A stretch of DNA of 62,036 nt, the filler included, from Squatina squatina (taxonomy: Eukaryota): the NCBI GenBank assembly GCA_031763465.1. It is 4 parts of 4 records of this genome, joined end to end, with 100 filler letters (N's around TTAATTAATTAA, not from the genome) between each part and the next. Parts side by side here need not be neighbours in the genome. Positions count along the whole stretch, not along the records: positions 13,690 to 27,649 come from JARFOE010000046.1; 3 more parts are not named here. One strand, written 5' to 3'. The position numbers and the translations under genes are program-made. Under the pieces are notes generated by a model that was not told where the DNA came from, made no database searches, and saw nothing but the letters and a program-made list of their open reading frames with translations. Each line of letters begins with the position of its first letter. Within the stretch, counting starts at the first letter, position 1. Below are positions 7,805-60,249 of the stretch, piece by piece.

Positions 7805-8272
7805 NNNNNNNNNNNNNNNNNNNNNNNNNNNNNNNNNNNNNNNNNNNNNNNNNNNNNNNNNNNNNNNNNNNNNNNNNNNNNNNNNNNNNNNNNNNNNNNN
7901 NNNNAGAAGTCCAATTGACCTTTAGAAGAACTGAACTTTCCTAACGACTGGTGCTAGCCAGGTGACTGTGACACAGCAGTCGCTCTTCCATTGCAATCTG
8001 TGTGAGCGTTCTACATCGTGTCAGGTTGCAAATCACATCTGATGCCTCCAAAGTCCCAGAGGTATCTTTGGTGGGTCCCAAGAGAGACTTGATATCATGG
8101 GCACCGCAATGGCACAGTGCCACGGTGCGACAGTGAGTCCTCCCCATGGTCATGCGCCCAGACTTCTGACCCCATTTCCCCCAGTTGATGAATTCGTCAG
8201 CTCAGCCATGGTGTGCGAAGTGGAGACGAGATGAAAGGAAAACAAATGTAATGATTACCATCTGGTTGCCAA

Positions 8273-13589: not shown

Positions 13590-13689
13590 NNNNNNNNNNN
13601 NNNNNNNNNNNNNNNNNNNNNNNNNNNNNNNNNTTAATTAATTAANNNNNNNNNNNNNNNNNNNNNNNNNNNNNNNNNNNNNNNNNNNN
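13590..13689. other. Artificial scaffold-joining linker
   Basis: 44 N + TTAATTAATTAA (stops in all six frames) + 44 N. Confidence 0.97.
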
Positions 13690-14419
13690 ATGAATACTCA
13701 TCTATGGATTTTTAAAAAAATGTAAAAGGCTTGAAAACACTTCTATCAGTGCTTTTCATTTCAATGATAATGAAATAATACTAAAGGCCTGATTTTATTC
13801 AGTGTGGAATGGCTGGCTTCTCTTAGGATGCAATTTTTCTGCAATTCAATTATACACTTGTTGAGGCCAAAAAAGACACCCAGCGGGCTTAAAAACCATC
13901 TGAATGTCGAGATTGATTTACGGTTGAAACTCTCCAAAATCAAACTAAGATTCCACAAATTCTGCATTAGCAGCTAACAGGCTCATCCCACTGGCTGAGA
14001 GTCAGTCATCAAGTGTTCTTTTATGTTCAAGGATACTCAGTATTATACGACTCATACTCTGCTTTTTATGTTGCTTTCTGTCTTAAACAGTATATTATTC
14101 TAACTGAGAAAATAAAATCCTCTGATCTAGGGAATGATAATTCAATGGTTATGGTACTGGACTTGCAACCCAGAAGGCTTAAATTCAAATCCCACCAAAT
14201 TTAATTCGACAACTTGTTGAATTAAATTTAATAAATCTGACCTACATGTGATTCTAGTCCACCTTACATAGTTGACTCTTAATGATGGCATCAAATTAAA
14301 TCCAGATTGTAAGCAAAACCACTAAATTCAGCAGATTAGTTCAGAAAAGTAAATAGACCTATTGGCAACAGCCCAGGAATCATGTCAGGCCACATCCCAG
14401 GCAATCTCAGTCCAATCAA

Positions 14420-14790
14420 CCCTGCAAGGTCCTCCACACTAACTAATATCAGGAGATTAAGACCTAGGTTGGGAAAGCTGTCCCATGGGTCAGTCATGCC
14501 CAACATGCCTGATATAATCCTACTCACAGAATCATATGTTGGATTTGAACTTACATCCCCGGATCATTAGTCCAGGTGTCTGGAATATTAGTCCAGTAAC
14601 ATAATCACTCTGCTACCATACCTATACCCATTGAATTTGAATTCCCTGAAATCAAGAAAGACTATGGGAATTTCTTGCTGATCAGCACCTACCGTTAACC
14701 TCCCACCTTCCTCGCCTCTCTCTGTAAATTAAACATCACTTGGAGGAAGCACTCTGAAAATCATTCTGGGTGGGGATCTCAATGTTTCCA
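14420..14790 (+). mobile_element. Degenerate LINE apurinic-endonuclease domain relic, interrupted by a short antisense tRNA-like SINE head at about 14536-14615
   Basis: NIRRLRPRLGKL...PDIILLTESY, then a TYR and a GDLNV motif, typical APE motifs in order. Confidence 0.55.
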
Positions 14791-15203
14791 TGTGACATTA
14801 AGAAGTGATTGAGTTTCCCCATTCATAGTCTTGCCAAATCTCAAGTTCCTCTTTCACAATGCTGCTAACTCTTGGACCCCTACCCCAGTTCTGCTAAGCT
14901 TCAAGATTATCCGAGTGCTACCACATCCCAGGATCCCCTTTCACATCCCTCACTCTGTACTGCTAAATATCAGATACCCAATGCAAATGGTGCATCCTGC
15001 ATAACGTCTAGTGGTGTATCCTCAACTTTAAAAAATGGTAGGGAATAAAAATTAACTATATAGATAAAGGAATATATATAAAATAAAAGAATAGTCATGC
15101 ACTNNNNNNNNNNNNNNNNNNNNNNNNNNNNNNNNNNNNNNNNNNNNNNNNNNNNNNNNNNNNNNNNNNNNNNNNNNNNNNNNNNNNNNNNNNNNNNNNN
15201 NNN

Positions 15204-16249
15204 AGTGTCCTCTACTGAAAGTCACCAGCCTTCCACCAGCAATGCTGCAACCACAGGGGTAGCACTGTGTGACATCAGTAGGATAGGCAAAGGCACACGC
15301 AAGACAGTCGCTAGGAGAATGCATACGGGTGATGAGTTGACTTCTTGATGTTACATTGGATGGATAGATGAATAAAGTTGGAGTGGAAAGTTTGCTTTGT
15401 GGTGGCTTTTATTTCAGCATCGTGGCCAAGAGGACGCTGTTATGGTCAATAACAGAGGGAAGGTATGGGAGGGGAATTGGGGTTGTGGTCACTGGTACCA
15501 CAGGCGGATGATTACATCCTGCATGTCCCAGCCAGAAAGGGGCTGACTGGGTTGCGACCTTCCTTCTGTTTCCTCCTCTTCCGCGTCCCCCCTCTTCCGC
15601 GTCCCCCTCTTCCCTCTGCACCACTGCTGGAAATCTGAAATAAAAGCAGAAAATGTTTGAAATACTCAGCTGGTCAGGCAGCATTTCAACCTGAGACGTG
15701 AACTCTGTTTATCTCTCCACGAATGCTGCCTGACATGCTGAGTATTTGCAGTATTTTCTGGCTTCTCAGAGGCCTTCCTTTACCATCTGAGGTCTTCAAG
15801 CATCCAACAGCACTCCCTGCACACTTTAAAAAGCTTTTAACATCTACTGCACCAAGACACCACTTCGATAAAATATTTACAAAATCCAGTTCAAAAGCTT
15901 AAATGCAAACTTGCCTGAAAGACGTGTGTCTCTCTAAAAAGTGCTGACAGTGCCTCTGTCAGTCTGCTGCAAGCTCGCTTTCAGGGCGAGCTCAGGATTC
16001 AGCGTTAAATTCAGCACAAAGGTCCATTTTCGCAGAATGTGGCGTTAAGCCGGCATTGCGTGCCAACTGACGATACACTCTCCAGATTTTCATGTCCAGA
16101 GCTAACGCTGCTAATGGCAGTACTTTGGCCCTCACCAGAATGGCGGCCACCGCGTCCCATGCCAGAGATGGGTGTTAGAGCGGCGGACTCCATTTTTCTC
16201 CAGGAACCTGCCGCCAACGGGTGGTGGTAAGTAGCCCAATTTCTAGGCC
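15204..16249. mobile_element. PIF/Harbinger relic (convergent 3' ends plus right terminus)
   Basis: Opposed polyA signals (AATAAA about 15371, TTTATT about 15407), acidic minus-strand tail, CpG-rich subterminal region and terminus CCAATTTCTAGGCC. Confidence 0.5.
15626..15760. mobile_element. Penelope-like inverted pLTR pair inserted in a Harbinger relic
   Basis: 15647-15685 is the near reverse complement of 15722-15760; both match the 20078-20214 repeat. Confidence 0.68.
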
Positions 16250-16751
16250 ATCTAGTGTGGCCATCACATTTCAAAGTGTCACACTTACACTGGTTAGTTC
16301 AAGTTCATAAAACAGCAATAAATTCCAACTGAACAGCTGCAGGTCTTGGTAATTGACTGATGGCATTTTCAAAATGATTTTGTAGAAGAGAAAGAAAGCA
16401 ATCATCCGTTCAGGGTGTGTCAAGTTACAGCAATAATACTTTGTGAGCTTAAAGGGTCAGGCTAGAAATTAAATACACCTTCAGTTTAGCAGCAGGAAAT
16501 GGTATAGTGCTTCTGTCATTATAAAATCTAGTGTATCCTCCAATTTACTATGAGCAACACCACAAAGATTGATTGCAATTTGATATTTTTAAAGTACAAT
16601 TATATTAATTGCATTATCACTTCACTGCTGTAATGCTGGTATAATGAGCTGTGACAAACACAGATCTTTAGGAAAGTAAAACAGTATAATTATGTTATTA
16701 TCGAAATTAGTAACATAACTTTAATAATGCTCATTTGTATTCCCCATGTAG

Positions 16752-16853
16752 CTAGGGCTTTGGAGTCCAACCACTGGATTGAATGGTTCGCTGGTAGATC
16801 AAAAACTGGAAAACAGTATGGAGGGCGTGACACTGCGAGTTGTGACAGTGCTG
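16752..16853 (+). CDS. GRID2: Glutamate receptor delta (GluD2-like) internal exon, ATD-LBD linker and start of S1
   Basis: tgtag| ... |gtaaac, 102 nt, phase 0-0. Translates [34 protein letters not shown], matching the recalled GluD2 segment [34 protein letters not shown]. Orthology to GRID2 is uncertain (see findings). Confidence 0.9.
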
Positions 16854-17499
16854 GTAAACCAGAATTTTTTGCCTGCATATATAGTGGAATGTATATTTTG
16901 CAACTTACAATGAAGTTTCAATACTTGTGACATTAGAAATAACCAAGATTAATAGAACAATAATGTAAATCCCATCAATATTATTATACCTCAAGTTCCT
17001 CAACAATGGTTGCCAGATTTGAACCAAAATATCTGTGACTTTCTCACATCAGATAATTTCTTTAAAATTAACATGCTAGGAACTGCATATATTCTTTAAG
17101 ACTAATGCATTGCTGGAGTGACTTATTGTTCTTTATCCTATTCAGCAGTCTCTCTCCTACTGCCTGTAATGCCTCTCCTGATATACTCACTAAGCAGTAG
17201 TATAAACAGTAATCATGAAAACGTTTTCAAGGTGAACCATTTCATTTTCCAGAATTAAGCAGATTCAGTGCATCAAGCCTACTCCTCCAACAAATCTTGT
17301 AAAATGTACCCTATCTGCTCCTACTACTTGATGTCCCAAGTGGANNNNNNNNNNNNNNNNNNNNNNNNNNNNNNNNNNNNNNNNNNNNNNNNNNNNNNNN
17401 NNNNNNNNNNNNNNNNNNNNNNNNNATCCAACTCCTCTGCACTACAATGGGCCACTGCCCTTCACAGACAACGAACCCCAAACGCAGCAGCAATAAGAG

Positions 17500-18110
17500 C
17501 CATCATGTTCCACGGAATATTTGACCATTTCAGTCCATACTGATTCCTGTAAACTTTATTCCTGTTCCCAACCAGATATTTATCAAGTTCTTTTTGATTT
17601 TTTTTGAAGGACTTAATCAACCCAGCATCAGGTGATTTTACCCTAAGTCCTGGAATCATCTTTGTTGCTCTTCTCTGAATCCTCTCACTGCATCTCTCTT
17701 TTTGAAGGTAGGGTGCCCAAAATTGCACACGGTATTTGACTATGGCCTCACCAGTGATCTGTACAATGTCAGTATAACTTGTCCTGAATTGCAGTTCAAT
17801 GGCCTGCAGATGCACCCCAGAACCCAATTTACTTTATGAAGTGTTCAGAACTCTCATACACTCATTTAATGCTTTTAGAATATGATCCGTGATCACTCCC
17901 AAATCAGTTTTCTTTTCAGCCACTCTCAAACGACCCTTTCACGTTATCTTATAAATAAGACCTTTTCATTCCAAACACAGGTTGACTGTGACCTGCTCCT
18001 ATATGTATTATTCAATATTCATACATATAAAAATCCATCTGCCATTTAACAGCCCATCTGTGTAATTTGCCCATGTCTCTCTGAAGACAGTCAATCATTT
18101 TTCCAACCCA
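17500..18110 (-). mobile_element. Degenerate CR1 LINE fragment
   Basis: Minus-strand peptides YRVQFWAPYLQK...ERIQRRATKMIPGL and LQRDMGKLHRWAVKWQMDF. Confidence 0.78.
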
Positions 18111-18681
18111 GACTTGCCCACGGAGCATGGTTGTAAGCAAATTTATTGCCTCCAAAATTGTAGTCGGCGTCGTAGCTATGAAGCACACCGCTGACTTATG
18201 AAAATAATTCCCGCTTGCCTTGAGGCCCACATGTACAATTGCTGTTTTGTGCTGCAGGGTTGTGTACTGCATATTGCATCACTGAGCCCAGGAGCGCAGT
18301 GTACAGCCTATGCATATGAAAGGACACGCCCACAAAACCTGTCAAAACTAAACAAGGAACTTCGTTCCATCTGTAGCATTGAAATTACCTTTACTTTTAA
18401 TTAAACAGCAAATCGTTCCTTCAGCTTAAATTTAGATATAAATATTTTAAAAGGATCATGCGCAAATTTATTTTGACAATTGTGCTGTCAGTGTTCTACA
18501 GCATTAGCGGTGCTGCAAACACTGACAAACATTGCACAAAGGTCAGGGTTGCACCGAGGTTCTCCCATGACTCCCTCCATANNNNNNNNNNNNNNNNNNN
18601 NNNNNNNNNNNNNNNNNNNNNNNNNNNNNNNNNNNNNNNNNNNNNNNNNNNNNNNNNNNNNNNNNNNNNNNNNNNNNNNNN

Positions 18682-19105
18682 GGCGGGTCACATTGTCCGC
18701 ATGCCTGACTCAAGACTCCTGAAACAAGCACTATATTCTGAGTTTCGTCACAGCAAGTGACTTCCAGGAGGGCAGAGGAAACACTTCAAGGACGTCCTCA
18801 AAGCCTCCCTGAAAAAATGTAACATCCCCACTGTCTCATGGGAATCTCTGTCCCAAGACCACCTGAACTGGAGGACAAGGCGCCAACCACTTTGAGCTTC
18901 TCTGGCGGGAGCAGGTGGAGGCCAAGCGCAGGCAGCAGAAGGAGCGCGCGGAAATCCAGGCATCCCACCCACTCACCTCATCAAATAACACCTGTGGTAG
19001 AGTTTGCAGATCCCGTATAGGGCTATTTAGTCACCTCAGAATCCACNNNNNNNNNNAAGCAAGTCATCCTCGACTTCGAGGGACTGCCTAAGAAGGAAGA
19101 AGAAG
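18682..19105 (+). mobile_element. RTE (BovB-like) LINE 3' end
   Basis: AGHIVRMPDSRLLKQALYSE...GGQRKHFKDVLKASLKKCNI...W motif, degenerate C-terminal zinc knuckle, short 3' UTR and (AAG)n tail. Confidence 0.85.
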
Positions 19106-19110
19106 GGCCT

Positions 19111-19414
19111 CGGTGTAATACAGTGACCGACCTGTACACACCAGTATTATACCTCAGTGCTCTCCAGTGACAGACCTGTAACCGTCAGTACTGTGTCTGT
19201 GTTATACAGAGACAGACCTGTACCCACCAGTACTGTAACCCAGTGTAATACACTGACAGACCTGTACACACCAATACTGTACCCTAGTGTTTTACTGTGA
19301 CAGACTTGTACCCACCAGTACTATACCTCAGTGTTACAGTGACAGGCCTGTTCCCACCAGTACTGTACCTCAGTGTAATACACTGACAGACCTGTACCCA
19401 CCAGCACTGTACCC
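19111..19414. repeat. Minisatellite, about 44-bp unit, 7 copies
   Basis: Consensus CAGTGTAATACACTGACAGACCTGTACCCACCAGTACTGTACCT, units 42-44 nt. Confidence 0.9.
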
Positions 19415-19584
19415 CCGTATTACATATATAGCAACATTAAAAGTGGTTGCTCTTTACCAATTTCGAAACGAATACAACTGCAATTATCTGGAGATATGGA
19501 TTTAATTCCCATTATCCATTAAGCTACAAACACAAGCAACTGCTGCATATGAGAAGGAAATTAAGAAATGTTACCTGCACACAG

Positions 19585-20070
19585 GAAACATAGGAACAGG
19601 AAGAGGCCATTCAGCTCATTGAGCCTGTTTTGCCATTTAGTTAGATAATGGCTGAACTGCACCTCAACTCCATTCACCTACATTTGTTCCTTATCCCTTG
19701 ATACCCTTGCCTGACAAAAATACCTTGATCTCAGTCTTGAAAATTGCAATTGAACCTGCATCAACAACCTCTTGGGAAAGCAAGTTACAGATTTCCACTA
19801 CCTTTTGTTTGAAAAAGTGCTTCCTGATTTCACACCCAACTAACCAAGCTCTAATTTAAAGACTATGTCCTCTTGTTCTGGAATCCCCCACCAGAAGAAA
19901 TAGTTTCTCTGTAAACCCTATTGAATGCCTTAATCATTTTAAACGTTTCAATGAGGTCCACTCTTAAGGTGACTCAAGAGACTACAAACAGTTAATACAA
20001 CCTGTCCTTGCAATTTAACCATTTAAGCCCTGGGATCATTCTGGAGAATCTGCATTGTATGCCTTCTAAT
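19585..20070 (-). mobile_element. CR1 LINE 3' fragment
   Basis: aaacataggaacaggaagaggccattcagc...ctaatttaaagactatgtcctcttgttctgg, antisense CR1 3' end. Confidence 0.72.
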
Positions 20071-20077
20071 GTGATTC

Positions 20078-20214
20078 CTGTTCTGACGAAGGGTCATTGA
20101 CCTGAAATGTTAACTCTGTTTCACTCTCCACAGATGCTGCCTCACCTGCTAAGTTTTTCCAGCATTTTCTGCTTTTATTTCAGATTTCCAGCGTCCGCAG
20201 TATTTTGCTTTTGT
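20078..20214 (+). mobile_element. Penelope-like element pseudo-LTR remnant
   Basis: ctgacgaagggtcattgacctgaaatgttaactctgtttc...cagatgctgcc...ccagcattttctgcttttatttcagatttccagc; related copies at 15626-15760, 27090 and 29000. Confidence 0.7.
20080..20114 (+). ncRNA. Degenerate minimal type I hammerhead ribozyme motif (Penelope type)
   Basis: CUGACGA at 20083-20089, stem II AGGGUC/AUU/GACCU, GAAA at 20104-20107, then UGUU; short stem I GUU/AAC. The palindromic stem III is apparently decayed from ACGU to AUGU. Confidence 0.55.
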
Positions 20215-21171
20215 GTCCTTCCCGATGTTTGGTGGCCAGAACTGAAGGTGGTATTTCAGATGGGATCTGACCAAGGCTCCCTTAGTATCACTTTTTCATT
20301 TTTGAATCACATCTTGACATAAAGGCCAATATTTCATTAGTTTTTGTGGTTACTAGCTGATTTTCTTTTCTAATCCTGGGATGTTGAAACCATTTGCAGC
20401 ATCCCAACTAACTCTGCACAGTCCAAAGATTGAACCTGTGGCCCCTTTCTGATCTGCTCAGCTACGTACTGAATGAACTTCCTTGGCCATCAGGGAGGGT
20501 GTCTGTGATGTTCATGCACAGACCTGTCGTACAGATAGTCAGAGAGACTGCTCTGGCTGTTCAGGGTGCCTGAGGGAAGACACCTTTTACTTCAGCTGAT
20601 GAAAAGGAATGATTTTATCCACTAATGAAACTGCCGGGTTACCTATGCGCCAGACAAGCCCACAACTATATGCTGAGTAGCGGACATATCTCTCCAATGA
20701 TAGCCAGTCGCTATAATTCCCACTCCAAGTATTCAAAAACCAGAACTCACAACTGCTGCAGGCTAGATTGTGTTGAATCATCTGGTCATTCTCCCATATT
20801 CCTATAAAGTAAGGTGGCTCTATAAAGCATAAATACATTTTGTAAACCATTGAGAGGTTTGAAGTGTTTGATATTTGTATTGTCCCCATTCTAAGTGTAT
20901 GTATTTACTGCATCAAAATGCAGTTTGAAGTCTTGAGCTCAATATCATTAACCAATATTAATATTACACATTAATACCTCATGCATTATGACAGATCTAT
21001 AATATTGCTGTGTTATCAAAGGTAGAGAGAAGATAAATAACCTAGCTGTCTAATTTTGATGCTTGGAAAATTGGTACATCATTACAATTAGATGATTCTC
21101 AGTTTTCATTCCTGGCAATATGAAAAACCCATTCATAATTTGTGTATGTTTGTTTTAAATTTACTCTATAG

Positions 21172-21472
21172 AGAGCTGATATAGCGGTTTCAGCCTTGAC
21201 AATTACCCCAGAGAGAGAGAATGTTGTGGACTTCACTGGTCGCTTCATGGACTACACCTTAGGATTTCTACTTAAGAAGCCAGAACACAAAGTGGATATG
21301 TTTACCTGCCTAGAACCATTTGATCTAACAGTGTGGGCCTGTATTATTGGTACTCTGTTTATAATAGGCCTGCTTGTCTGCATGCTTAGCTGGGTAAAAC
21401 CATCACCACTACAGATAGGATCTGTGACATCAACAACTTTGTACAATGCTGCGTGGCTTGTTTATGGATCAT
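21172..21472 (+). CDS. GRID2: Glutamate receptor delta (GluD2-like) exon, S1-M1-M2, 3' end lost in N gap
   Basis: Acceptor ctatag|. Translates [60 protein letters not shown]...[14 protein letters not shown], with the iGluR LTIT.ER..VDF and PF...W motifs and the GluD2-type STTLYN. Confidence 0.93.
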
Positions 21473-22149
21473 NNNNNNNNNNNNNNNNNNNNNNNNNNNN
21501 NNNNNNNNNNNNNNNNNNNNNNNNNNNNNNNNNNNNNNNNNNNNNNNNNNNNNNNNNNNNNNNNNNNNNNNNNNNNNNNNNNNNNNNNNNNNNNNNNNNN
21601 NNNNNNNNNNNNNNNNNNNNNNNNNNNNNNNNNNNNNNNNNNNNNNNNNNNNNNNNNNNNNNNNNNNNNNNNNNNNNNNNNNNNNNNNNNNNNNNNNNNN
21701 NNNNNNNNNNNNNNNNNNNNNNNNNNNNNNNNNNNNNNNNNNNNNNNNNNNNNNNNNNNNNNNNNNNNNNNNNNNNNNNNNNNNNNNNNNNNNNNNNNNN
21801 NNNNNNNNNNNNNNNNNNNNNNNNNNNNNNNNNNNNNNNNNNNNNNNNNNNNNNNNNNNNNNNNNNNNNNNNNNNNNNNNNNNNNNNNNNNNNNNNNNNN
21901 NNNNNNNNNNNNNNNNNNNNNNNNNNNNNNNNNNNNNNNNNNNNNNNNNNNNNNNNNNNNNNNNNNNNNNNNNNNNNNNNNNNNNNNNNNNNNNNNNNNN
22001 NNNNNNNNNNNNNNNNNNNNNNNNNNNNNNNNNNNNNNNNNATGGACTCATGGGAGAACCTGGGTGTAGCCCTGCACCTCTGTGCAGTGATTGTCAGTGT
22101 TTGCAGAACTTCAATACTGTCGAACACTCACAGCACTAATGTCAAAAAT

Positions 22150-22640
22150 AAGGTGACCATGGTCCCTTTAAGGAAACCGACTCATGAATCACGTTACCAT
22201 CTGCATTTAATTGGGCCGGGAAATGTGCTGGGTGGGCTTAACAAGTCACATTGAGGTACGTTCATTTTAGGCTGTGGGACCTAGGGCGACTGAACCCGCC
22301 GAGGTGAGCTAAATCTCGGCCTTTGCTATTCCTACTCTCTGATCTGTCTACAAATTTCCTCTTCCCTTTCCCTCCCACAATTAGGGGATCTGTAACAAAG
22401 ATCTCTGATCATATTGGCCAGAATTTTCCTTACCTTGGGCGGATCCAGTGCAGACGGTGTCCATGGTGGGTCCCGACCCCGCTGCTGGATCCATCCCACT
22501 GTACAGATGAACGTACCTTAATGGGGCCTATTAAGTGTGCTCAGCACGTTACCTGGCCCAATTAGATGGAGTGGTTCTGGTGATGTCATACATGATGCGT
22601 TTTAAGCCAGGATCCTTAAAGGGACCCTGGCCACATTAAA
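22150..22640. mobile_element. Two ends of one MITE-like family in inverted orientation
   Basis: 22150-22321 is the diverged reverse complement of 22416-22635 (atgaacgtacct, ggcccaatta, tccttaaagggacc). Confidence 0.6.
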
Positions 22641-23340
22641 TTTTAAGTTCAATCTAACATAGTGGGTGTTGAATCTTTACTGTACAATCATATAATAAAA
22701 GTTATATATGAGTGACAGGGAAATATTTAAATAAAATTATCATTAAGTAATATGACTCCATCTACAAATACATTCAAGACCATAACTTAAAAAGCACATT
22801 AATTGTGAAGTCATTGGTGCTTTAGCCACAAATCTCTGGACTTTTGTATCAGTAACTGGTTCAAATAAAAGATGTGTGTGTACAGATAATATATACAATT
22901 AAGCAGATTTTAAATGTAGTTGTAAAGGGGTGGATTTACAATCTTACGCAAGTTCAGCGAAACAGCTGCGGAATCCCTGACAAACAGAGTAAGTGGTGCT
23001 TACAGTGTGTTTCTGGGATTTCTATAGCTCTTNNNNNNNNNNNNNNNNNNNNNNNNNNNNNNNNNNNNNNNNNNNNNNNNNNNNNNNNNNNNNNNNNNNN
23101 NNNNNNNNNNNNNNNNNNNNNNNNNNNNNNNNNNNNNNNNNNNNNNNNNNNNNNNNNNNNNNNNNNNNNNNNNNNNNNNNNNNNNNNNNNNNNNNNNNNN
23201 NNNNNNNNNNNNNNNNNNNNNNNNNNNNNNNNNNNNNNNNNNNNNNNNNNNNNNNNNNNNNNNNNNNNNNNNNNNNNNNNNNNNNNNNNNNNNNNNNNNN
23301 NNNNNNNNNNNNNNNNNNNNNNNNNNNNNNNNNNNNNNNN

Positions 23341-23598
23341 GCAGCCAATGGCACCCTGCACCATGGGGAAACCTGCCATCCTCCCAAAGCTGCATGCTCG
23401 GTGTGCCTGCTGCTCTCTGGCCAGAGAGAAGGAAATGTATTCAGCTTCCTTGGATTACAGAGCCTCAGTTACCTCCCTGATAGAACAGTGAGCGTCAAAC
23501 TTGGAGATGTTGCAAATATCTCCTGCTCCAGCCTGGAAGGAACACAATGCATAAAAGTTTTTGGCCACCATGACCTTCACCGCCTCGGCAGATATGGC
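23341..23598 (-). pseudogene. PIF/Harbinger transposase (HARBI1-like) relic inside a GluD intron
   Basis: Minus strand AVKVMVAKNFYALCSFQAGAGDICNISKFDAHCSIREVTEAL*...FGRMAGFPMVQGAIGC; in-frame stop, and the first catalytic Asp (IDC) reads IGC. Confidence 0.85.
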
Positions 23599-24337
23599 NN
23601 NNNNNNNNTCAGTAGCTCGTCCTGCACTGTGTCGCCTCTGCTCATTCTCCTTGATGTGTCAGATTGTCTCCAACTCAGCCTCAACTTGTAATTAGTGAAA
23701 TTCTGTGGCTGTCAACACAGTGCACATATCCCACAATGTAAATAATTTAATGTTTGAGATTTATTTCAAGCAATCGACATACTGGAAACATTATTACAGC
23801 AGTTTCTTCTTGAGTACGAAAGTTGCATAACTGCTAAGCATGACAAATGTGAGTGTTATGATAGTCATTCACCCAAGAGAAAGAATGTCTGTCAGTTATC
23901 AGATTTCTTGTTCATTATTTATTCTAATGTCTTCTGGTAAAACCTTGAATGAGCCTTCATTTATTCTGGAGCCCCACAGGCTGGATTTTATTCATACTGT
24001 TTGTGCTAGTCATAATGTCAGTGCTAAAGGCATGTTAGTTTGTTTTATAGCATTAAAAAGCATTTTTACTTGGTGACCAATATGTTTTATTGCTACAATG
24101 TGAATGCATAAACTATCATTTGAATGTATTTCCAGTAATGGCACATAGTGTTAAAGTGACTATCCCCCTTCTTTNNNNNNNNNNNNNNNNNNNNNNNNNN
24201 NNNNNNNNNNNNNNNNNNNNNNNNNNNNNNNNNNNNNNNNNNNNNNNNNNNNNNNNNNNNNNNNNNNNNNNNNNAATACATTATTTGAAAAATGTAGACA
24301 GTTGGTGAGATAACTAATTATGTTTTCCATGATGCAG

Positions 24338-24533
24338 ATCTTTTCAGGACCTCGCCAAGCAAACTGATGTTCCATATGGTACTGTCCTTGATTCTGAAGT
24401 ATTGCAAATAATCAAAACCAAGGGTCGGAATCCATTTGAGCTTGAACAAACATATGCTCATTTGTGGAATATGATAAACAGAACAAATGGTTTGGAGAAC
24501 TGTGTGAAGAAAATTCATGATGGAATTCAAAGA
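24338..24533 (+). CDS. GRID2: Glutamate receptor delta (GluD2-like) exon, first part of S2
   Basis: atgcag| ... |gtgagt, 196 nt. Translates SFQDLAKQTDVPYGTVLDSEVLQIIKTKGRNPFELEQTYAHLWNMINRTNGLENCVKKIHDGIQR; the DL.KQ...YGTV.DS and KG.NP motifs are delta-family characters. Confidence 0.92.
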
Positions 24534-24790
24534 GTGAGTGAGCAACTGCATGCAAGACTTCATTTGCTACGGGCATTTAATTGACACTTGACCTTGGATA
24601 GTCTTTACCAGTATTATTGTTTATAAACATATTATTGCATATATTTAATCTATATTAGATGTGTCTTGTAAAAAAGGAGCACATATGCACTTACTGGGTA
24701 GAAGTATGGACATAATAATCAGAAAAGTGGTCAAAATTGTTCATTTTCTTTATTTTGAATCAAAATGCAAATCATTTTTCAATAAACTAT

Positions 24791-24937
24791 GGGTGCCCAA
24801 TTCGTGGTCAAACTTCTAGCGACAAATCGGAGCGAAAATGGCGGTAGGCCACTTTAAGCGCTAAAAATCGAGTGCAAAACTCAGGAACCGTTAGCGCCGG
24901 CGCAAAACGGGCGCAAAGCCAATAATGCTCGAGGCGC
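24791..24937 (+). mobile_element. PIF/Harbinger-like left end
   Basis: GGGTGCCCAATT terminus and CpG-rich subterminal motifs; runs into a gap. Confidence 0.55.
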
Positions 24938-25037
24938 NNNNNNNNNNNNNNNNNNNNNNNNNNNNNNNNNNNNNNNNNNNNNNNNNNNNNNNNNNNNNNN
25001 NNNNNNNNNNNNNNNNNNNNNNNNNNNNNNNNNNNNN

Positions 25038-25440
25038 TAGGAGGGGGCCAAGGACAGATAGAGCGTTGGGTGACTCCAGAGGCAATGGTGCAGGAAACAA
25101 AGCCATTCTCTGGCTACAACTGAATAGCTAGGAATGAGATCAACTAAGGGCAGTCTCCCCAACTGGACAATGGAGGAGAGGTGTTGGAGGAGGATGGTGT
25201 GGTCAGCTGTGTCAAAAGCTGCCGAGAGGTCGAGAAGGATAAAGAGCAATTTACAACGCGAAGTCACATAGGATGTCATTTGTGGCTTTGATAAGGGCTG
25301 TTTCAGTCCTGTGGCTGGGGTGGAAACCAGATTGGAGAGATTCAAACATGGAGTTGCAGGAAGGATGAGCACAGATTTGGGAGACAACAGCACATTCAAG
25401 GACTTGAGAGGAAAAGGAGGTTGGAGATAGGGCAGTACAA
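25038..25440 (-). mobile_element. L2-clade LINE reverse transcriptase fragment
   Basis: Minus-strand LLDLSAAFDTADHTILL RT motif, with frameshifts. Confidence 0.8.
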
Positions 25441-26041
25441 ACAGAGCAAGTTTCCAGATTAACTTCTACCAGAGCAATTATGCAAGAAAGCTTCTAATGC
25501 CTTATGAGGACTGTTTTTAAAAAAAAAACTAGCCGCGATTTATCTCACTTGGGTTTCCCCTCTTCTGATCATGAGACAGTGTAAAACTTAAACNNNNNNN
25601 NNNNNNNNNNNNNNNNNNNNNNNNNNNNNNNNNNNNNNNNNNNNNNNNNNNNNNNNNNNNNNNNNNNNNNNNNNNNNNNNNNNNNNNNNNNNNNNNNNNN
25701 NNNNNNNNNNNNNNNNNNNNNNNNNNNNNNNNNNNNNNNNNNNNNNNNTGAAAATGCAACATCACACACTTGATGCACTATATCTTGTAAACCCTCTTGC
25801 AAAGTATGTAAATGACATTCCGTCTATATCAGGTCATATACCTTTTCATTTTCTTATTAGTCCATTTTTAAAATTAGTTCTCAACAAGGAAATCAAAATA
25901 CCAGGACCAGCTTATTGCAATGTGTGATAAAAAGACATTGGTTACTTCAGCTAATACTTTCATGTTGCATATGTTTTTGAAGACTAAGTATAGAACTAGT
26001 GTTTCTGTAAGCCATGTAGTAACACACTTTCGTATTTTAAG

Positions 26042-26208
26042 GTAAAGTCCGGAAATTATGCATTCATCTGGGATGTTGCAGCACTAGAATATGTTGTAGA
26101 GAATGAGCCCGACTGCTCCTTTGTCACGGCAAGGAATTCTAAAGTCGATAGAGGTTATGGCATTGCTCTTCAAGATGGCAGCCCTTACAGGGATATTTTT
26201 TCACACAG
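26042..26208 (+). CDS. GRID2: Glutamate receptor delta (GluD2-like) exon, second part of S2
   Basis: tttaag| ... |gtatgc, 167 nt, phase-compatible with the flanking exons. Translates VKSGNYAFIWDVAALEYVVENEPDCSFVTARNSKVDRGYGIALQDGSPYRDIFSHR. Confidence 0.93.
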
Positions 26209-26906
26209 GTATGCTGCTTATGTTTCTAGCTCAACAATTTTGAATATTGTGGCGCACATCTTGATGCCTAAAACATATTATATTCTACTATAGTAGCATT
26301 CTACTATAGTTTATTGATATCTTCCAATTTAAGTAAAAGCTGTATAGTTTTAATTATTTAAAGTAGGTTTGGTGCTACTCAACTTTTGTGTTATGCAGTA
26401 CACAATATATTATTTTTTGATGTACTAACCATGGAAATGAATATGTAGAATACCAGGTTGTTTAAAATCACAGTGGGGAGACAATAATTTCTTTATCAGT
26501 TTCAGCTGTGAGGAGGCATTCACGACAAATCTTCCAAGTGACGTATTTTTTTAAAATTATAATCAGATATGAGCAACAGAGAAAACCACCAGGGAACAAG
26601 TTATTAGATAGACATTTGACTCAAGCTTACCTCCAAAAAAAGCTATTAAAAATTGGCATTATTTATGTGATGGAGATTTCAACAGGCTTAGATTATCTGA
26701 TCTTATTAATGAAGAAAGATAGTATAAATCCAGTGAGCTGAAGTTGGGGCTCAACGAAAACAATACTCAAGAAACTAATGGTTACTTAACCAGTTGCATT
26801 AAGTAANNNNNNNNNNNNNNNNNNNNNNNNNNNNNNNNNNNNNNNNNNNNNNNNNNNNNNNNNNNNNNNNNNNNNNNNNNNNNNNNNNNNNNNNNNNNNN
26901 NNNNNN

Positions 26907-27215
26907 CCCTACAACCCTCCGAGAACTCTGCCACTTGTACATCCCCAACTCCTTTTGCCTCAGCATTGAGGGCTGTGCCTTTAGGCTCTAAGATACTGGA
27001 CTCCCCTCCATGAACCCTTTTGCCTCTCCACCTCTCTCTCTCCTTTAAAATCTTCCTTAAAAATGACCTCTTTGACTAAGCTTTTATCGAAACAAAAAAT
27101 GCTGGAAAAACTCAGCAGACCAGCTTTTATCTAACATCAGCTTCTTTCACTTGGTGTCAATTCTTGTCTGATGGTACATCTGTGAAGTGCCTTGGGATGT
27201 TTTTCTATGTTAAAG
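26907..27215 (+). mobile_element. L2-clade LINE 3' end, with a short Penelope-like fragment near 27090-27122
   Basis: gcctctccacctctctctcctttaaaatcttccttaaaa...ctctttgactaagctttt...tgtgaagtgccttgggatgtttt; similar to 42050-42295. Confidence 0.65.
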
Positions 27216-27275
27216 GTTGAAAGAGTCTTACAAATAATTGTCCTCAAATAACAAAACTTATGCATTTTTATACAG

Positions 27276-27513
27276 GCTTCTGGAACTTGAGCAAAGTGGT
27301 GAACTGGATGGACTAAAGCAGAAGTGGTGGCCTAAAGCTGGGAAATGTGATTTGCAAAGTCATGTTAAAACGCATGGAAAGGGAGGCCCTATGGATCTAC
27401 AAAACTTTGCTGGAGCATTCGGTTTTCTAGCTTTGGGTGTTATTTTGGCTTTTATTGCTGCTATGATAGAAACTTGGTGGAAAGGCAAAAAGAAAACAGA
27501 CTCTGATAGAGAG
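27276..27513 (+). CDS. GRID2: Glutamate receptor delta (GluD2-like) exon, end of S2, M4 and start of CTD
   Basis: tacag| ... |gtaata, 238 nt. Translates LLELEQSGELDGLKQKWWPKAGKCDLQSHVKTHGKGGPMDLQNFAGAFGFLALGVILAFIAAMIETWWKGKKKTDSDRE (LK.KWWP..G.CDL motif, hydrophobic M4, ETWW). Confidence 0.92.
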
Positions 27514-27649
27514 GTAATACTTACATTTCAGATCTCTCTAAAGACTAGTATTTTTGCTACTCTAAATTGCAAAGATTAAGCATCAGTACATATTAAGTAA
27601 TCATTGGAATCCTTTTACACTTATGGTGCAATGAAATTTGATTTTCATC

Positions 27650-27749
27650 NNNNNNNNNNNNNNNNNNNNNNNNNNNNNNNNNNNNNNNNNNNNTTAATTA
27701 ATTAANNNNNNNNNNNNNNNNNNNNNNNNNNNNNNNNNNNNNNNNNNNN
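27650..27749. other. Artificial scaffold-joining linker
   Basis: 44 N + TTAATTAATTAA + 44 N; gene content switches from GluD to GRK5 across it. Confidence 0.97.
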
Positions 27750-28536: not shown

Positions 28537-28728
<192 letters not shown>

Positions 28729-30007: not shown

Positions 30008-30151
<144 letters not shown>

Positions 30152-33369: not shown

Positions 33370-33708
<339 letters not shown>

Positions 33709-46626: not shown

Positions 46627-46726
46627 NNNNNNNNNNNNNNNNNNNNNNNNNNNNNNNNNNNNNNNNNNNNTTAATTAATTAANNNNNNNNNNNNNNNNNN
46701 NNNNNNNNNNNNNNNNNNNNNNNNNN
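46627..46726. other. Artificial scaffold-joining linker
   Basis: 44 N + TTAATTAATTAA + 44 N; the next scaffold starts in the middle of ITGA4. Confidence 0.97.
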
Positions 46727-47979: not shown

Positions 47980-48025
47980 ATGTAGCAGTTGGTGCCTTTA
48001 TGTCCGATACTGTTGTGTTGCTCAG
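47980..48025 (+). CDS. ITGA4: Integrin alpha-4 exon, end of FG-GAP repeat 7 of the beta-propeller
   Basis: tcacag| ... |gtaaga, 46 nt. Translates (D)VAVGAFMSDTVVLLR. Confidence 0.88.
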
Positions 48026-50134
48026 GTAAGATTGAGTCATTATTATTCTGAAAGATAATTTGGCCAAATGGAAAATAATGATGCCTTATTATCAAAATAT
48101 AAAGCAGTGACCTCATACTGCATAATATGCTGTTTGAACTTCAAAAATGAAGCCTACAGATTTTTTGCTTTCGATGCAGGGCGATGTATGCAGATAGTCT
48201 GCAGTAGGTTTGTTGTTCCGCACCACTATATGAGCTGTTTGCTTTCAACACTTTTTAAAATTCAGGATATAATGAATAAAATAATGTGCTTCTCAAATAC
48301 AATAATCTGCTTTTATTCTGTTCATAAAGCTTCTTAAATTTTTGTTACTGCAAATTATAAAGTGCAGTTTCACAAAGTGGAGATCCTGCCTGATCAACCA
48401 CCTTATACTTTTTGAGGAAGTGACATCTCAATTGGACAGTGGAAAGCCCTATGTTATAGTGCATAGGGATTGCTGCTGTGCCCCTACTGTGTCAAATCTG
48501 CATAAATGACCTGGGATTCTGAAATACTATGCAAGCTGGTTAAATTCACAGATGTTTGCAAATTAAGATGGGGGGCACTTGAGTCCTCTAAAGCAGCAAG
48601 AATTGCAGAAGGACCCAGACAAAATTTGTAAGTGAGCAGTAGATGAAATTGAATACAGATAATGAAAAGTGTTGCATCTGAAAGAAAAATGTGTGGAATA
48701 TACTCAGCGGTGTTGAACTGGCCAGGGAAGAGGTTGACGTAAATATGCCAGCTGAGCTGTACCTTTAAGCATATCCAGTCATTGCAGAACAGCAATCGCA
48801 ATACTGACCTACATTGCCCAATCAACAACANNNNNNNNNNNNNNNNNNNNNNNNNNNNNNNNNNNNNNNNNNNNNNNNNNNNNNNNNNNNNNNNNNNNNN
48901 NNNNNNNNNNNNNNNNNNNNNNNNNNNNNNCTGCAGAATAACCCATCCCCAGGGTTTTCAGAATAATTATTGTCTGCTGCATTCTCCTTTCACTGTCCTG
49001 AAAAGAAGCCTCAACATGCATATTGATATTTAGAGTGGCAAAGCCATGCCAAATTAAGAGGGTGAAAATGCCAGTGAGCAATTAACAGTTGTACCAACAA
49101 TGCAGAAAGGTCAGGATGGCATCCAAGGAGTGCCAACGCTGCACCATTTTGTAAAGGCTCAAATCACATCTGCTAAGTAATTGTGCCCAAGCCTCTTGTC
49201 CGACATTTTCATGCTCCTCTATTCAAGTACCATTTATTGCCATCCTGTGCTGCTATATTGTAAGCAATGACAAATAAATACCCAGCACAATGCTCAAGTC
49301 AATTGCAGGGCATTTGCTTCCTCTATTATGTAGTGTGTGAATGTTGATAGATTGAGTTGGCATAATGCTGCCCCTTGATGCATGTATTTTGTTTCTGATG
49401 TGTGACACCTAACCTGCCACTCTTTCTAAGTAATCCCTATGCGGAAGGAACAAGTGTGTTGGCTGGCTGCAGGGTTTACTGACAGCCTGCTGGGATTCTA
49501 GTGGCTCGAGCCCTCTCTGTTATACAATGCCAGGGGTCTGCAGGTAGGCCATCCACATCTGAGACTGTGATGGTTGATTGGTGTTGGCTGCTTTAACTTA
49601 CCTCCTCTTATGCTTGGTGTACCAGGCACTTCTGGGAAGGTAGCCATCTGTTCTTTAAAGTGTGGTCTGTCTCTCCCCATGTGCTTGCAGAATGGCTTGC
49701 ATCTCCTGGCCAAACAAATTGGCTTTTTCAGTCAGTAATGCCCAAAACTACAGCAATGTGGTAAATGATCAATTAGCTTTTGCTTTAACAGGTTGCTTAA
49801 ATAGCTCCTGATTGCAGTTCCCAGTTGATTTTAGAGGATTTAATTCTATTCTGCTTTCATTGTCCAGCCTGCTGTGCAGGAGAGATTCTCGCATCTCAGT
49901 GCACAGACTAAACATAGCAAAATTGTGTGCAAATTGACAGGGAGAACTCCCAAAATCTTTTTGTAACGAAATCTTTTATTTGCAATGACATACATTTCCT
50001 AAAGTTATTTATCCATTGTTTTGAAGGAGCTGTGGAGAGTTATTTACTGAATTACTGCTCCAGTTTTAATCAGGGGAGTAGAATTGACTAATTTCAGGAT
50101 ATCCTGACTAGTAATTGTTCTCCATGCATTGCAG

Positions 50135-50289
50135 AAGCAGGCCTGTTGTGGTTGTTGAAGCCTTCCTGCGACTGCCTCCTTCAGTCAACCATACAAAAAT
50201 GGAATGTTTTAAGAATGGGAAGCCTGTTGTGTGCATCAATGTTACTCTCTGCTTTGGTCATAAAGGAAAGAAGATTCCTGGTCACATAA
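50135..50289 (+). CDS. ITGA4: Integrin alpha-4 exon, start of thigh domain
   Basis: ttgcag| ... |gtaagt, 155 nt. Translates SRPVVVVEAFLRLPPSVNHTKMECFKNGKPVVCINVTLCFGHKGKKIPGHI; SVN.TK..C..NG.P.VCI..TLCF..KGK..PG.I fits alpha-4 better than alpha-9. Confidence 0.9.
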
Positions 50290-51248
50290 GTAAGTGCATT
50301 TTTACAAGTACATTGTGGTTGTTGAACTTTACACATGAATAACTCAAATTCATCAGATTTTATATTATCTTTTGCAATTGAACATCAGTTTTACCGAGGC
50401 ACTGCTGCAGGAGACATGTATCNNNNNNNNNNNNNNNNNNNNNNNNNNNNNNNNNNNNNNNNNNNNNNNNNNNNNNNNNNNNNNNNNNNNNNNNNNNNNN
50501 NNNNNNNNNNNNNNNNNNNNNNGGTCAGCAAGGATGAGGATAATAGATAAACAGGGCTAGGTGCCAGATAGGGTACAAGCAGCAGAGCCTTGAATGAGCT
50601 TAAGTTTAAGGAGGATGGGAGGCTGACGAGGAGAGATTTGGAATAATCCAGTCTGGAGGTATCAAAGACACGAATGAGGGTTTCAGCACCACATGGCTGA
50701 GGTTTTTGATCAGAGATAGTTTGTCAGAAACTTTAGTCAATCCTACTTTAACAATCATTCTCAGTCTCACAAACCTTTTCCTTTATAGACCTGATAAACT
50801 GCATTGACCTGTCTCATCACCTGCACTGACACGGCTTGGCATGCTCACTGTGCTCACTGCACAATTGGTTGGTTAAGACGGTTCCTCTCAGTATCAAAGA
50901 TTGCCATCTTCTATGAGCACCCAGTGGCTACATTCATCTTCAGCCTGCTCTGAGGTATACCAGTAGAAGGATCCAATATGCAATGTTCCCCTTTAAGAAA
51001 AGAAGCCCTTTAGGAGCTGTTGTACTTGGGTTTCCCTGCCCACTAACTGGCCATGCAATCCCTACGCCAATAGAAAATGTGCAGGGAGCATACTGTAATA
51101 ATTTAAATTACCAAATCCCCTGTAATCTGGTGGGATTGGGAGACTGCCCAAATGGCACGGGAGTACACAGTCTTGCTGGGAGTGCAGCCACATTTTTCCT
51201 ACAATTAGGGAATGCATCCTTTGATTAGTACTCTGGCTTAGGACTCTT

Positions 51249-58060: not shown

Positions 58061-58211
58061 GCTCCATGTAAACAAATCTTATCTAGCAGTTCAGGAGGTG
58101 AAGAGGATCATCCTGAATGTATCTTTGTTCAATGCAGGAGATGATGCATACTCAACCACTCTTAATATTAAATTCTCCAAGGACTTGTATCTTATCAAAA
58201 TGGTTGAAGTG
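58061..58211 (+). CDS. ITGA4: Integrin alpha-4 exon, calf-1 domain
   Basis: tcctag| ... |gtaagt, 151 nt. Translates LHVNKSYLAVQEVKRIILNVSLFNAGDDAYSTTLNIKFSKDLYLIKMVEV; LNVSLFNAGDDAY is as in alpha-4. Confidence 0.92.
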
Positions 58212-59807: not shown

Positions 59808-59887
59808 GTGGGATTAAGTTTTGTCCTGGATACCAGCAAGCTTACCAAAGCAGAGGAAGACATTGTCATCACTGTTAATGCGACTTG
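59808..59887 (+). CDS. ITGA4: Integrin alpha-4 exon, calf-1 domain
   Basis: acccag| ... |gtaagc, 80 nt. Translates VGLSFVLDTSKLTKAEEDIVITVNAT(C). Confidence 0.88.
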
Positions 59888-60249
59888 GTAAGCATTTTAT
59901 AAATTTTTTTTAAAAGTGCTGTGTTAAGGAAAAAGACACACTGCTTGGTGAAATGCAGAGGTTAGGGAAGACTGTTGTTGTGCATCATTAAGTCCTTGCA
60001 GGGAAGCACATTTATTATATGGCCTGTAGAGAAACAATGTGGACAAGAGATGCTTTATTGAGGATAGGAGCAAAAAGATAACAGTTTAAGTAATGAGAAT
60101 GAATTTGTGCAGGCACTGTTTGTTACAGCTGCGAATGTTATTTCAACAGGCCACTGGGCATGTGTAAGCTAATTATCACTTGCTTTCTAGATCAATATAC
60201 TCCACTTCACACATCTAAAGTTGTATACTTCCTGTGTTTACCCCTGCAG

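What the first reader, a model, noticed from the sequence alone, without database searches (positions are those of the whole stretch)
16752..27513. Divergent delta-type glutamate receptor: candidate third GluD paralog in a cartilaginous fish
Seen: five clean exons with no stops and delta-family motifs; the last three splice in compatible phase. Known: mammals have GRID1 and GRID2, and the ligand-binding and transmembrane regions of each are very conserved among orthologs. Against my recalled human GluD2, about a third of the S1-M1-M2 exon differs, which is a lot for an ortholog. It mixes GluD2-type features (STTLYN, DRGYGIALQ, ETWW) with GluD1-type ones (TPERE, KKPE, FQDL, NCV, WDVA). Inference: a separate ohnolog from the vertebrate genome duplications, lost in mammals, or else a fast-evolving GRID2 duplicate.
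Basis: partly seen in the sequence, partly recalled or inferred. Interest (0 to 1): 0.75.

Follow-up and report, generated by a model that had tools for sequence, protein, structure and literature searches.

The report
Third delta glutamate receptor in sharks
Sharks, rays and chimaeras carry a third delta-type glutamate receptor gene beside GRID1 and GRID2, not found in the bony-vertebrate proteins searched; it has a fixed change in its amino-acid pocket and two in its channel gate, so it likely works as a closed-channel synapse-linking protein.

Summary
Confirmed. Five stop-free, AG/GT-bounded exons (16752-27513, + strand; one cut by a gap) encode 334 residues of a delta iGluR. They are 91-97% identical to RefSeq 'delta-2-like' proteins of sharks and rays, 82% to the chimaera one, but only 58-62% to GRID2 and 47-53% to GRID1. 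Nine chondrichthyan species carry all three genes on different chromosomes. Trees place the clade ('GluD3', 20 species) as sister to all jawed-vertebrate GRID2; a shark-only GRID2 duplication is rejected (AU p about 1e-5). Accession order puts chimaera GluD3 beside SNCB as GRID2 is beside SNCA, suggesting the second-genome-duplication twin of GRID2, lost in bony vertebrates. A relative's spliced contig spans four exons. Cerebellin-binding residues are kept and the N-terminal domain is as conserved as in GluD1/2. Likely a cerebellin-linked organiser with a closed gate; function untested. Not found in print in ten searches, though RefSeq already holds the gene models.

The parts
16752..16853 (+). 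Exon: end of N-terminal domain, linker and start of S1 (34 aa)
   Evidence: AG/GT, open; 34/34 identical to Heterodontus delta-2-like, 22/33 to its GRID2
21172..21472 (+). Exon: end of S1 (A523, T525, R530 at 21214-21216, Y543, hinge S544T), M1 and start of M2; 3' end lost in gap 21473-22041
   Evidence: Pfam PF10613 above cut-off
24338..24533 (+). Exon: first part of S2; carries Glu at rat-GluD2 position 686 (codon GAA, 24396-24398)
   Evidence: numbering via 6lu9 alignment and Tiliqua GRID2
26042..26208 (+). Exon: middle of S2 (W741, D742 at 26072-26074, Y770)
   Evidence: e3-e4 joint seen in contigs of runs X1, X9, X12
27276..27513 (+). Exon: end of S2, M4, start of cytoplasmic tail
   Evidence: consecutive with e4 in X1 record 1
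21473..24337 (.). Interval where the missing M2 end and the M3 exon (gate motif) should lie; holds four N gaps
   Evidence: no tile hit; X1 record 1 has 158 letters between e2 and e3, exactly the length the ortholog P0005 predicts (counted by hand)
13590..13689 (.). Scaffold-join spacer (44 N, 12-base stop-rich word, 44 N): left limit of the piece holding the gene
27650..27749 (.). Scaffold-join spacer: right limit; genes beyond it are not evidence of synteny

Best explanation
The exons belong to a third vertebrate delta-type glutamate receptor gene (GluD3), the sister of GRID2, likely born in the second vertebrate genome duplication, kept in sharks, rays and chimaeras and likely lost in bony vertebrates; it is predicted to work as a cerebellin-linked synaptic organiser whose channel stays shut and whose pocket responds poorly to D-serine. 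Shown: separate clade, three genes per species, spliced contigs in relatives, residue states. Inferred: (1) 2R origin (topology plus accession-order proxy for SNCB linkage); (2) cerebellin binding through an N-terminal domain that keeps D24/I26/E61/R345; (3) Glu686 places a carboxylate at a residue within 4 A of D-serine, next to R530, which would repel the ligand carboxylate or bridge the cleft; (4) Thr653 points into the pore, as in GluA3 A653T, and would favour the closed state; (5) the -SSFL tail would bind a different set of PDZ scaffolds than -GTSI.
For: Identity 91-97% to complete elasmobranch delta-2-like rows vs 58-62% GRID2, 47-53% GRID1 over 334 aa. Trees; AU rejects D3+chondrichthyan GRID2 (p 3.4e-5; 9.7e-6), D3+GRID1 (p 0.0036) and D3 outside GRID1+GRID2 (p 0.0035) without hagfish. 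Nine species with all three genes on sequences of different length. 113 of 113 non-D3 rows listed score best to GRID2. Callorhinchus accession offsets SNCA-GRID2 1791, SNCB-D3 1785 (accessions); SNCA/SNCB regions are WGD2 sisters from a GRID-CCSER-MMRN-SNC block (PMC10451939, passages). A686E 20/20, A653T 20/20, F655I 20/20 D3 rows; none in 31 GRID1/GRID2 or 3 hagfish rows; 35 of 35 D3 proteins with the motif read TAI. A686 within 4 A of D-serine and A686S already cuts potency 6-fold (PMC5384001). A653T stabilises closed GluA3 (PMC5639461); A653 is a pore constriction in human GluD2 (PMC12520249). D24 18/18, I26 18/18, E61 19/19, R345 20/20 where covered (residues from 10.1101/2020.06.14.151258). 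Chimaera-to-shark distance: N-terminal domain D3 0.148 vs D2 0.172, D1 0.139; ligand domain 0.247 vs 0.104, 0.157; membrane domain 0.207 vs 0.061, 0.093. Vertebrate 'inactive' states Y613, K694, N720, N763, P806 kept (PMC10861852).
Against: No functional data. The M3 exon and N-terminal domain are not in the window; those states come from orthologs. R530, T525, A523, D742, Y770 are all kept, which a dead pocket would not need, and E686/T653/I655 are invariant rather than drifting. Rosano et al. state that upper-M3 effects depend on the ligand domain and are hard to predict; position 686 there controlled desensitisation. One paper (PMC10840383) calls GRIA3 A653T the lurcher-homologous position, against the primary report. 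LTAF occurs in 8 distant iGluRs among the fetched set. D3+GRID2 support is only 86 under the mixture model and the D3 stem is long. Synteny proxy is weak: the third control fails (SNCG-GRID1 offset 3699) and in Amblyraja the offsets differ by 527. Absence in bony vertebrates rests on protein searches capped at 8000 candidates with 120 of 757 hits listed; no bony-fish, coelacanth or lamprey genome was searched.
Confidence: 0.55

Rival explanations
1. Same ancient paralog, but a working ligand-gated or leaky channel with a shifted agonist: Glu686 supplies a new acidic contact for a more basic or longer amine, and T653/I655 retune rather than shut the gate.
For: E686, T653, I655 invariant in 20 of 20 species while R530, T525, D742, Y770, Q618, T649, T657 are kept; invertebrate GluDs are GABA-gated and residue 686 governs their activity (PMC10861852); human GluD2 can be ligand-gated (PMC12520249); that F655 changes open GluD1 is recalled, not checked here.
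Against: E450, which aids GABA potency in GluD1, is V/A/M in 19 of 20 rows; five 'inactive' vertebrate states are kept; A653T closes GluA3.
Confidence: 0.22
2. A modulatory subunit that co-assembles with shark GluD2 or GluD1 and damps their channel or D-serine signalling.
For: N-terminal domain, which drives assembly, is 66% identical to GRID2 and strongly conserved; two A653T subunits suffice to lower agonist sensitivity in AMPA receptors.
Against: M4 is only 37-39% identical to GRID1/GRID2; GluDs are described as homotetramers; co-expression unknown.
Confidence: 0.12
3. An old small-scale duplicate of GRID2 made before the bony/cartilaginous split, unrelated to the genome duplications.
For: Trees date the split only to before that divergence; synteny was not read directly; one of three accession controls fails.
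Against: Different chromosome from GRID2 in nine species; chimaera accession lies as near SNCB as GRID2 lies near SNCA; ((GRID2,D3),GRID1) mirrors ((SNCA,SNCB),SNCG).
Confidence: 0.08
4. A fast-evolving GRID2 duplicate that arose within cartilaginous fishes and is pulled to the base of GRID2 by its long branch.
For: Long stem (0.37-0.45 vs 0.15-0.16 for GRID2); no bony-vertebrate member found; closer to GRID2 than GRID1.
Against: AU p 3.4e-5 and 9.7e-6; GRID2 without D3 has support 100 under both models; D3 is no closer to shark GRID2 (60-61%) than to tetrapod GRID2 (62%).
Confidence: 0.03

Closest known systems
GluD2 (GRID2) of jawed vertebrates
   Same: Sister clade; about 60% identity; same domain order (Pfam); best fold matches human GluD2 9nwo/9ooo (N-terminal domain 5kc8 rmsd 1.4); D24/I26/E61/R345, R530, T525, D742, Y770, Q618 kept.
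   Different: Separate gene and chromosome; A686E, S544T, E450V in elasmobranchs; gate (S/T)YTANLTAI; M4 37% and tail 37% identical; tail about 25 aa shorter, ending -SSFL in 17 of 20 rows (-STFL in chimaera; two rows end otherwise) instead of -GTSI.
GluD1 (GRID1)
   Same: Delta family; shares KKPE, FQDL, NCV words; 47-53% identity.
   Different: Grouping with GRID1 rejected (AU p 0.0036); sharks have their own GRID1; lacks the GABA-aiding E450 equivalent in elasmobranchs.
RefSeq 'glutamate receptor ionotropic, delta-2-like' models of chondrichthyans (e.g. XP_067899074.1, XP_055499052.1, XP_007904462.1)
   Same: These are the orthologs (82-97% over the window exons).
   Different: Automatic names only; the chimaera one is even named plain 'delta-2'. 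No paper treating them as a distinct paralog was found.
GABA-gated invertebrate delta receptors (Rosano 2024, PMC10861852)
   Same: Delta family; polar residue at 686 (Ser there, Glu here).
   Different: GluD3 keeps the vertebrate states at 613, 694, 720, 763, 806 and has an altered gate.
GluA3 A653T disease variant (PMC5639461)
   Same: Same Ala-to-Thr change at position 7 of SYTANLAAF.
   Different: A pathogenic point mutation in an AMPA receptor; here the fixed wild-type state, together with F655I.

Membership tests
Delta iGluR family (GluD) | iGluR architecture: N-terminal domain, S1/S2 ligand domain, M1-M4 | tested here: met
   Ortholog P0429 has PF01094, PF10613, PF00060, PF00497 above cut-off; model pLDDT 72.9 matches GluD2/GluD1 first. 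Window holds only part.
Delta iGluR family (GluD) | Falls in the vertebrate delta clade | tested here: met
   Support 99-100 with GRID1, GRID2 and hagfish GluD against amphioxus/tunicate rows
Delta iGluR family (GluD) | Cerebellin-binding residues D24, I26, E61, R345 | tested here: met
   Kept in every ortholog that covers them; sequence only, binding untested; exons not in the window
Delta iGluR family (GluD) | D-serine/glycine pocket (Y496, A523, T525, R530, Y543, A686, D742) | tested here: inconclusive
   A523, T525, R530, D742 kept; A686E in 20/20; Y496 H or N in 6/20
Delta iGluR family (GluD) | SYTANLAAF gate motif | tested here: not met
   Orthologs read (S/T)YTANLTAI, 20/20; a few other iGluRs deviate too, so this marks a variant, not exclusion
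Delta iGluR family (GluD) | Ligand binding, gating behaviour, synaptic localisation | not testable with these tools
   needs experiments
GRID2 ortholog | Nests inside GRID2 and is the species' GRID2 | tested here: not met
   Outside the GRID2 clade; separate GRID2 in the same species
GRID1 ortholog | Groups with GRID1 | tested here: not met
   AU p 0.0036, 2.6e-4 for shark GRID1
2R ohnolog of the GRID paralogon | Duplication before the gnathostome radiation | tested here: met
   Sister to bony plus cartilaginous GRID2
2R ohnolog of the GRID paralogon | Location on a paralogous chromosome (SNCB / human 5q type) | tested here: inconclusive
   Accession-order proxy only: fits in Callorhinchus, loosely in Amblyraja, one control fails; window neighbours unusable

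The most novel reading that the evidence does not exclude
GluD3 is the missing 2R twin of GRID2 and a natural experiment on delta-receptor function: since before chimaeras and sharks split it has fixed an acidic residue in the D-serine pocket and a rewritten gate, making it either a self-plugged, permanently closed pure synaptic organiser or a vertebrate delta receptor with a new agonist, used in chondrichthyan-specific circuits with its own cerebellin and PDZ partners.
Probability: 0.5. Interest if true: 0.75.

Novelty: new variant of a known kind. Interest (0 to 1): 0.6.

Why it matters
The vertebrate iGluR list has two delta genes, based on mammals and zebrafish; the two broad phylogenies checked sampled no cartilaginous fish. 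A third, ancient paralog changes the ancestral jawed-vertebrate inventory. Whether GluD receptors need ligand binding or ion flow is a long-running dispute (PMC10861852, PMC12520249). GluD3 keeps the cerebellin face but fixes changes at a ligand-contact residue and in the most conserved gate motif of the superfamily, so expressing it, and swapping E686/T653/I655 with GluD2, tests directly which functions selection kept. If it proves an ordinary redundant GluD, it is still a correction to gene nomenclature.

Tried and rejected
Own genome not held: GRID1/GRID2 in this species and true flanks unchecked. Searches used wrong frames; corrected. Window neighbours (GRK5-like and integrin alpha exons) rejected as synteny evidence because spacers separate the pieces. 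Missing exons not found by tblastn (two stray hits at E 0.03-0.05 dismissed). AU tests for D3+GRID1 and GRID1+GRID2 were confounded by hagfish placement and repeated without hagfish. 'delta-2-like' proteins of Polyodon and Acipenser nest inside GRID2. In one search, 5 of 46 best-to-D3 rows were not D3 (three 28-36% distant iGluRs, two bichir GRID2 isoforms split by the single-HSP setting). Sequencing-run search: no RNA holder listed on record; runs laid are contigs of guessed kind, so tissue, level and strand are unknown. Rhincodon left out of the accession test (its GRID2 is a fragment; one synuclein accession is from another series). ESM Atlas gave only generic iGluR clusters. The structure model gave no coordinates, so E686 geometry was not measured. 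Earlier-findings look-ups returned nothing. Literature searches found no description of a third GluD; some searches were for residue function. The library lacks most subscription papers; figures (Rosano Fig. S1 tree, Marin Fig. 3 shark synteny) were not visible and the latter could show the gene near shark SNCB.
Full report
Observation. The five exons are real: 16752-16853, 21172-21472 (cut by a 569-N gap), 24338-24533, 26042-26208 and 27276-27513, all on the + strand with AG acceptors and, where visible, GT donors. The last three join into 200 open codons. They cover the end of the N-terminal domain, parts of S1, M1-M2, S2 and M4. Tiling the horn-shark ortholog in 30-residue pieces found no other exon. 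The window is a concatenation: three identical 100-base spacers at 13590, 27650 and 46627 delimit pieces, and the gene fills the piece 13690-27649. The GRK5-like and integrin exons downstream are therefore not usable as neighbours. No whole genome is held.

What it is. The S1-M1-M2 exon finds six clusters at 87-98% identity, all from cartilaginous fishes and five named 'delta-2-like', then conventional GRID2 at 65-70% and GRID1-type proteins at 49-52% (32 hits of 141 candidates). Cluster members extend the set to 20 species: sharks, rays, skates and Callorhinchus. Over the 334 window residues, identity is 91-97% to the 15 complete elasmobranch rows (two further rows lack exons), 82% to chimaera, 58-62% to 18 GRID2 rows and 47-53% to 13 GRID1 rows. 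A Xenopus GRID1 search shows ordinary GRID1 in sharks, skates and chimaera. Nine species have all three genes on sequences of different length: Heterodontus (GRID1 36.8, GRID2 287.9, new gene 122.1 Mb), Chiloscyllium plagiosum (30.2/45.1/82.3), C. punctatum (111.2/106.6/95.7), Hemiscyllium (36.8/47.9/87.8), Stegostoma (28.0/194.1/79.4), Pristis (27.5/145.6/120.5), Hypanus (70.3/195.4/93.7), Hemitrygon (71.2/203.0/98.2), Callorhinchus (28.3/139.2/19.6). I call it GluD3.

Phylogeny. With hagfish, amphioxus, tunicate and acorn-worm rows, the 42-row LG+G4 tree puts the window inside GluD3 (SH-aLRT 100), GluD3 sister to all GRID2 (98), and GRID2 of bony plus cartilaginous fishes together without it (100). 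A 28-row LG+C20 tree without the window row gives the same shape with 86 for GluD3+GRID2. Both are quick searches without bootstrap. AU tests reject GluD3+chondrichthyan GRID2 (p 3.4e-5, 23 rows; 9.7e-6, 20 rows), GluD3+chondrichthyan GRID1 (2.6e-4), and, without hagfish, GluD3+GRID1 (0.0036) and GluD3 outside both (0.0035). The stem is long (0.37-0.45), which remains a caution. The duplication thus predates the bony/cartilaginous split. No bony-vertebrate member appeared: all 113 non-GluD3 rows listed score best to GRID2, and the 50%-cluster library gave only a catshark fragment. One search scored 8000 candidates and listed 120 of 757 hits, and no genome was searched, so loss is likely, not proven.

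Origin. GRID1 and GRID2 lie in the human 10/4/5/2-8 paralogon (PMC3112091, passages). Marin 2023 (PMC10451939; passages and supplement hits) derives an ancestral GRID-CCSER-MMRN-SNC block and treats the SNCA (chr 4) and SNCB (chr 5) regions as products of the second duplication. As a proxy I compared RefSeq numbers, assuming (own knowledge) that mRNA and protein accessions run in parallel and roughly in genome order. In Callorhinchus the offset SNCA-GRID2 is 1791 and SNCB-GluD3 1785; in Amblyraja 144035 and 143508; the control SNCG-GRID1 in Callorhinchus is 3699 and fails. This favours, without proving, GluD3 as the SNCB-side twin of GRID2.

Splicing. In run X1 one 3530-base contig carries e2, 158 unmatched letters, then e3, e4 and e5 back to back at about 95% identity; the e3-e4 joint also stands in X9 and X12 (three studies; X5 did not cover e3/e4). 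The 158 letters equal what ortholog P0005 predicts for the missing M2 end and M3 exon (hand count). The runs are only guessed to be RNA and are from relatives, but an intron-free contig is what a spliced mRNA gives. Tissue is unknown.

Residues (rat GluD2 numbering; 20 GluD3, 18 GRID2, 13 GRID1, 3 hagfish rows). Pocket: A523, T525, R530, D742, Y770 kept; position 686 is Glu in 20/20 and in the window (24396-24398), against Ala or Ser in all others; E450 is V/A/M in 19 elasmobranchs and Glu in chimaera; hinge S544T. A686 is within 4 A of D-serine and A686S lowers potency sixfold (PMC5384001, passages). Gate: (S/T)YTANLTAI in 20/20, i.e. A653T and F655I with the lurcher alanine 654 intact; this exon is not in the window. 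A653T in GluA3 stabilises the closed state (PMC5639461, passages; PMC10840383, one passage, describes the position differently); A653 is a constriction in human GluD2 (PMC12520249, passages). Of the positions tied to vertebrate inactivity by Rosano et al. (PMC10861852, parts 1-5 of 8 and one supplement search), Y613, K694, N720, N763 and P806 (19/20) keep the vertebrate state. The cerebellin-binding residues D24, I26, E61, R345 (bioRxiv 2020.06.14.151258, passages) are kept wherever covered. On a fixed tree the chimaera-to-catshark distance is 0.148 in the N-terminal domain (GRID2 0.172, GRID1 0.139) but 0.247 in the ligand domain (0.104, 0.157) and 0.207 in the membrane domain (0.061, 0.093) (point estimates, no intervals; shark-to-skate membrane distance is not raised). 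The tail ends -SSFL in 17 of 20 rows, a class I PDZ-type ending (own knowledge), versus -GTSI. An AlphaFold model of the horn-shark ortholog (pLDDT 72.9, pTM 0.51) matches GluD2 and GluD1 structures first.

How it likely works. Strong constraint on the cerebellin face with looser ligand and membrane domains, a carboxylate in the pocket and a pore-facing threonine fit a neurexin-cerebellin-linked organiser with a shut channel and weak D-serine sensing (0.55). The invariance of E686/T653/I655 and of R530/D742 keeps open a retuned channel with another agonist (0.22) or a damping subunit (0.12). All functional steps are inference.

Novelty. The gene models are in RefSeq under automatic names. Seven searches aimed at a third delta gene or chondrichthyan GluDs found no description. 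Rosano 2024 sampled only rat, zebrafish, amphioxus and Ciona among chordates; Ramos-Vicente 2018 (PMC6307864, term search) has no mention of shark, chondrichthyan or lamprey; the whale-shark genome paper (PMC8455134, term search) has none of GRID or glutamate in its main text, supplements unseen. PMC13648236, PMC10084454 and PMC13069148 were seen as passages only and add nothing on this gene. Subscription papers and figures were not visible. Verdict: real, a new variant of a known receptor family, interest 0.6.

Noticed in passing
window 13590-13689, 27650-27749, 46627-46726: Three identical spacers (44 N, a 12-base word with stops in all frames, 44 N) show the window is a concatenation of separate scaffolds; adjacency across them is not synteny.
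   Followed up: yes
window 28540-28728, 30055-30143, 33405-33612 (+): Three kinase-domain exons of a G protein-coupled receptor kinase; best PDB match GRK5 (E 3e-36) over GRK4 and GRK6.
   Followed up: partly
window 47980-48027, 50136-50291, 58062-58211, about 59840-59890 (+): Integrin alpha exons (Pfam Integrin_A_Ig_1 and Ig_2); look alpha-4/alpha-9-like from recall, not tested.
   Followed up: partly
proteins P0342, P0369, P0360, P0350, P0028, P0312: GluD1 of four chondrichthyans, Xenopus and a caecilian has Ser at GluD2 position 686, the state of active invertebrate delta receptors, where rat and zebrafish have Ala (6 of 13 GRID1 rows).
   Followed up: partly
proteins P0300, P0139, P0162: Hagfish have at least two GluD paralogs with G544 and R694 (one also F613), states of GABA-gated invertebrate receptors, Arg at 543, and gate motif SYTASLAAF; candidates for active vertebrate delta channels. 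They group with GRID1 at 89-94 support.
   Followed up: partly
chondrichthyan GRID2 proteins: All 8 shark, ray and chimaera GRID2 rows have Phe at 496 and Ser at 753, unlike bony-vertebrate GRID2 (Tyr, Asp).
   Followed up: no
GluD3 orthologs, M2-M3 junction: Most models carry two extra residues after the QQ pore tip, absent in some isoforms; possibly alternative splice-site use at the selectivity-filter loop.
   Followed up: no
window 19120-19420: Degenerate tandem repeat (minisatellite-like) in the intron after the first exon.
   Followed up: no
XP_007904462.1 (P0456): The chimaera GluD3 ortholog is named plain 'delta-2' in NCBI, the same name as the true chimaera GRID2.
   Followed up: yes
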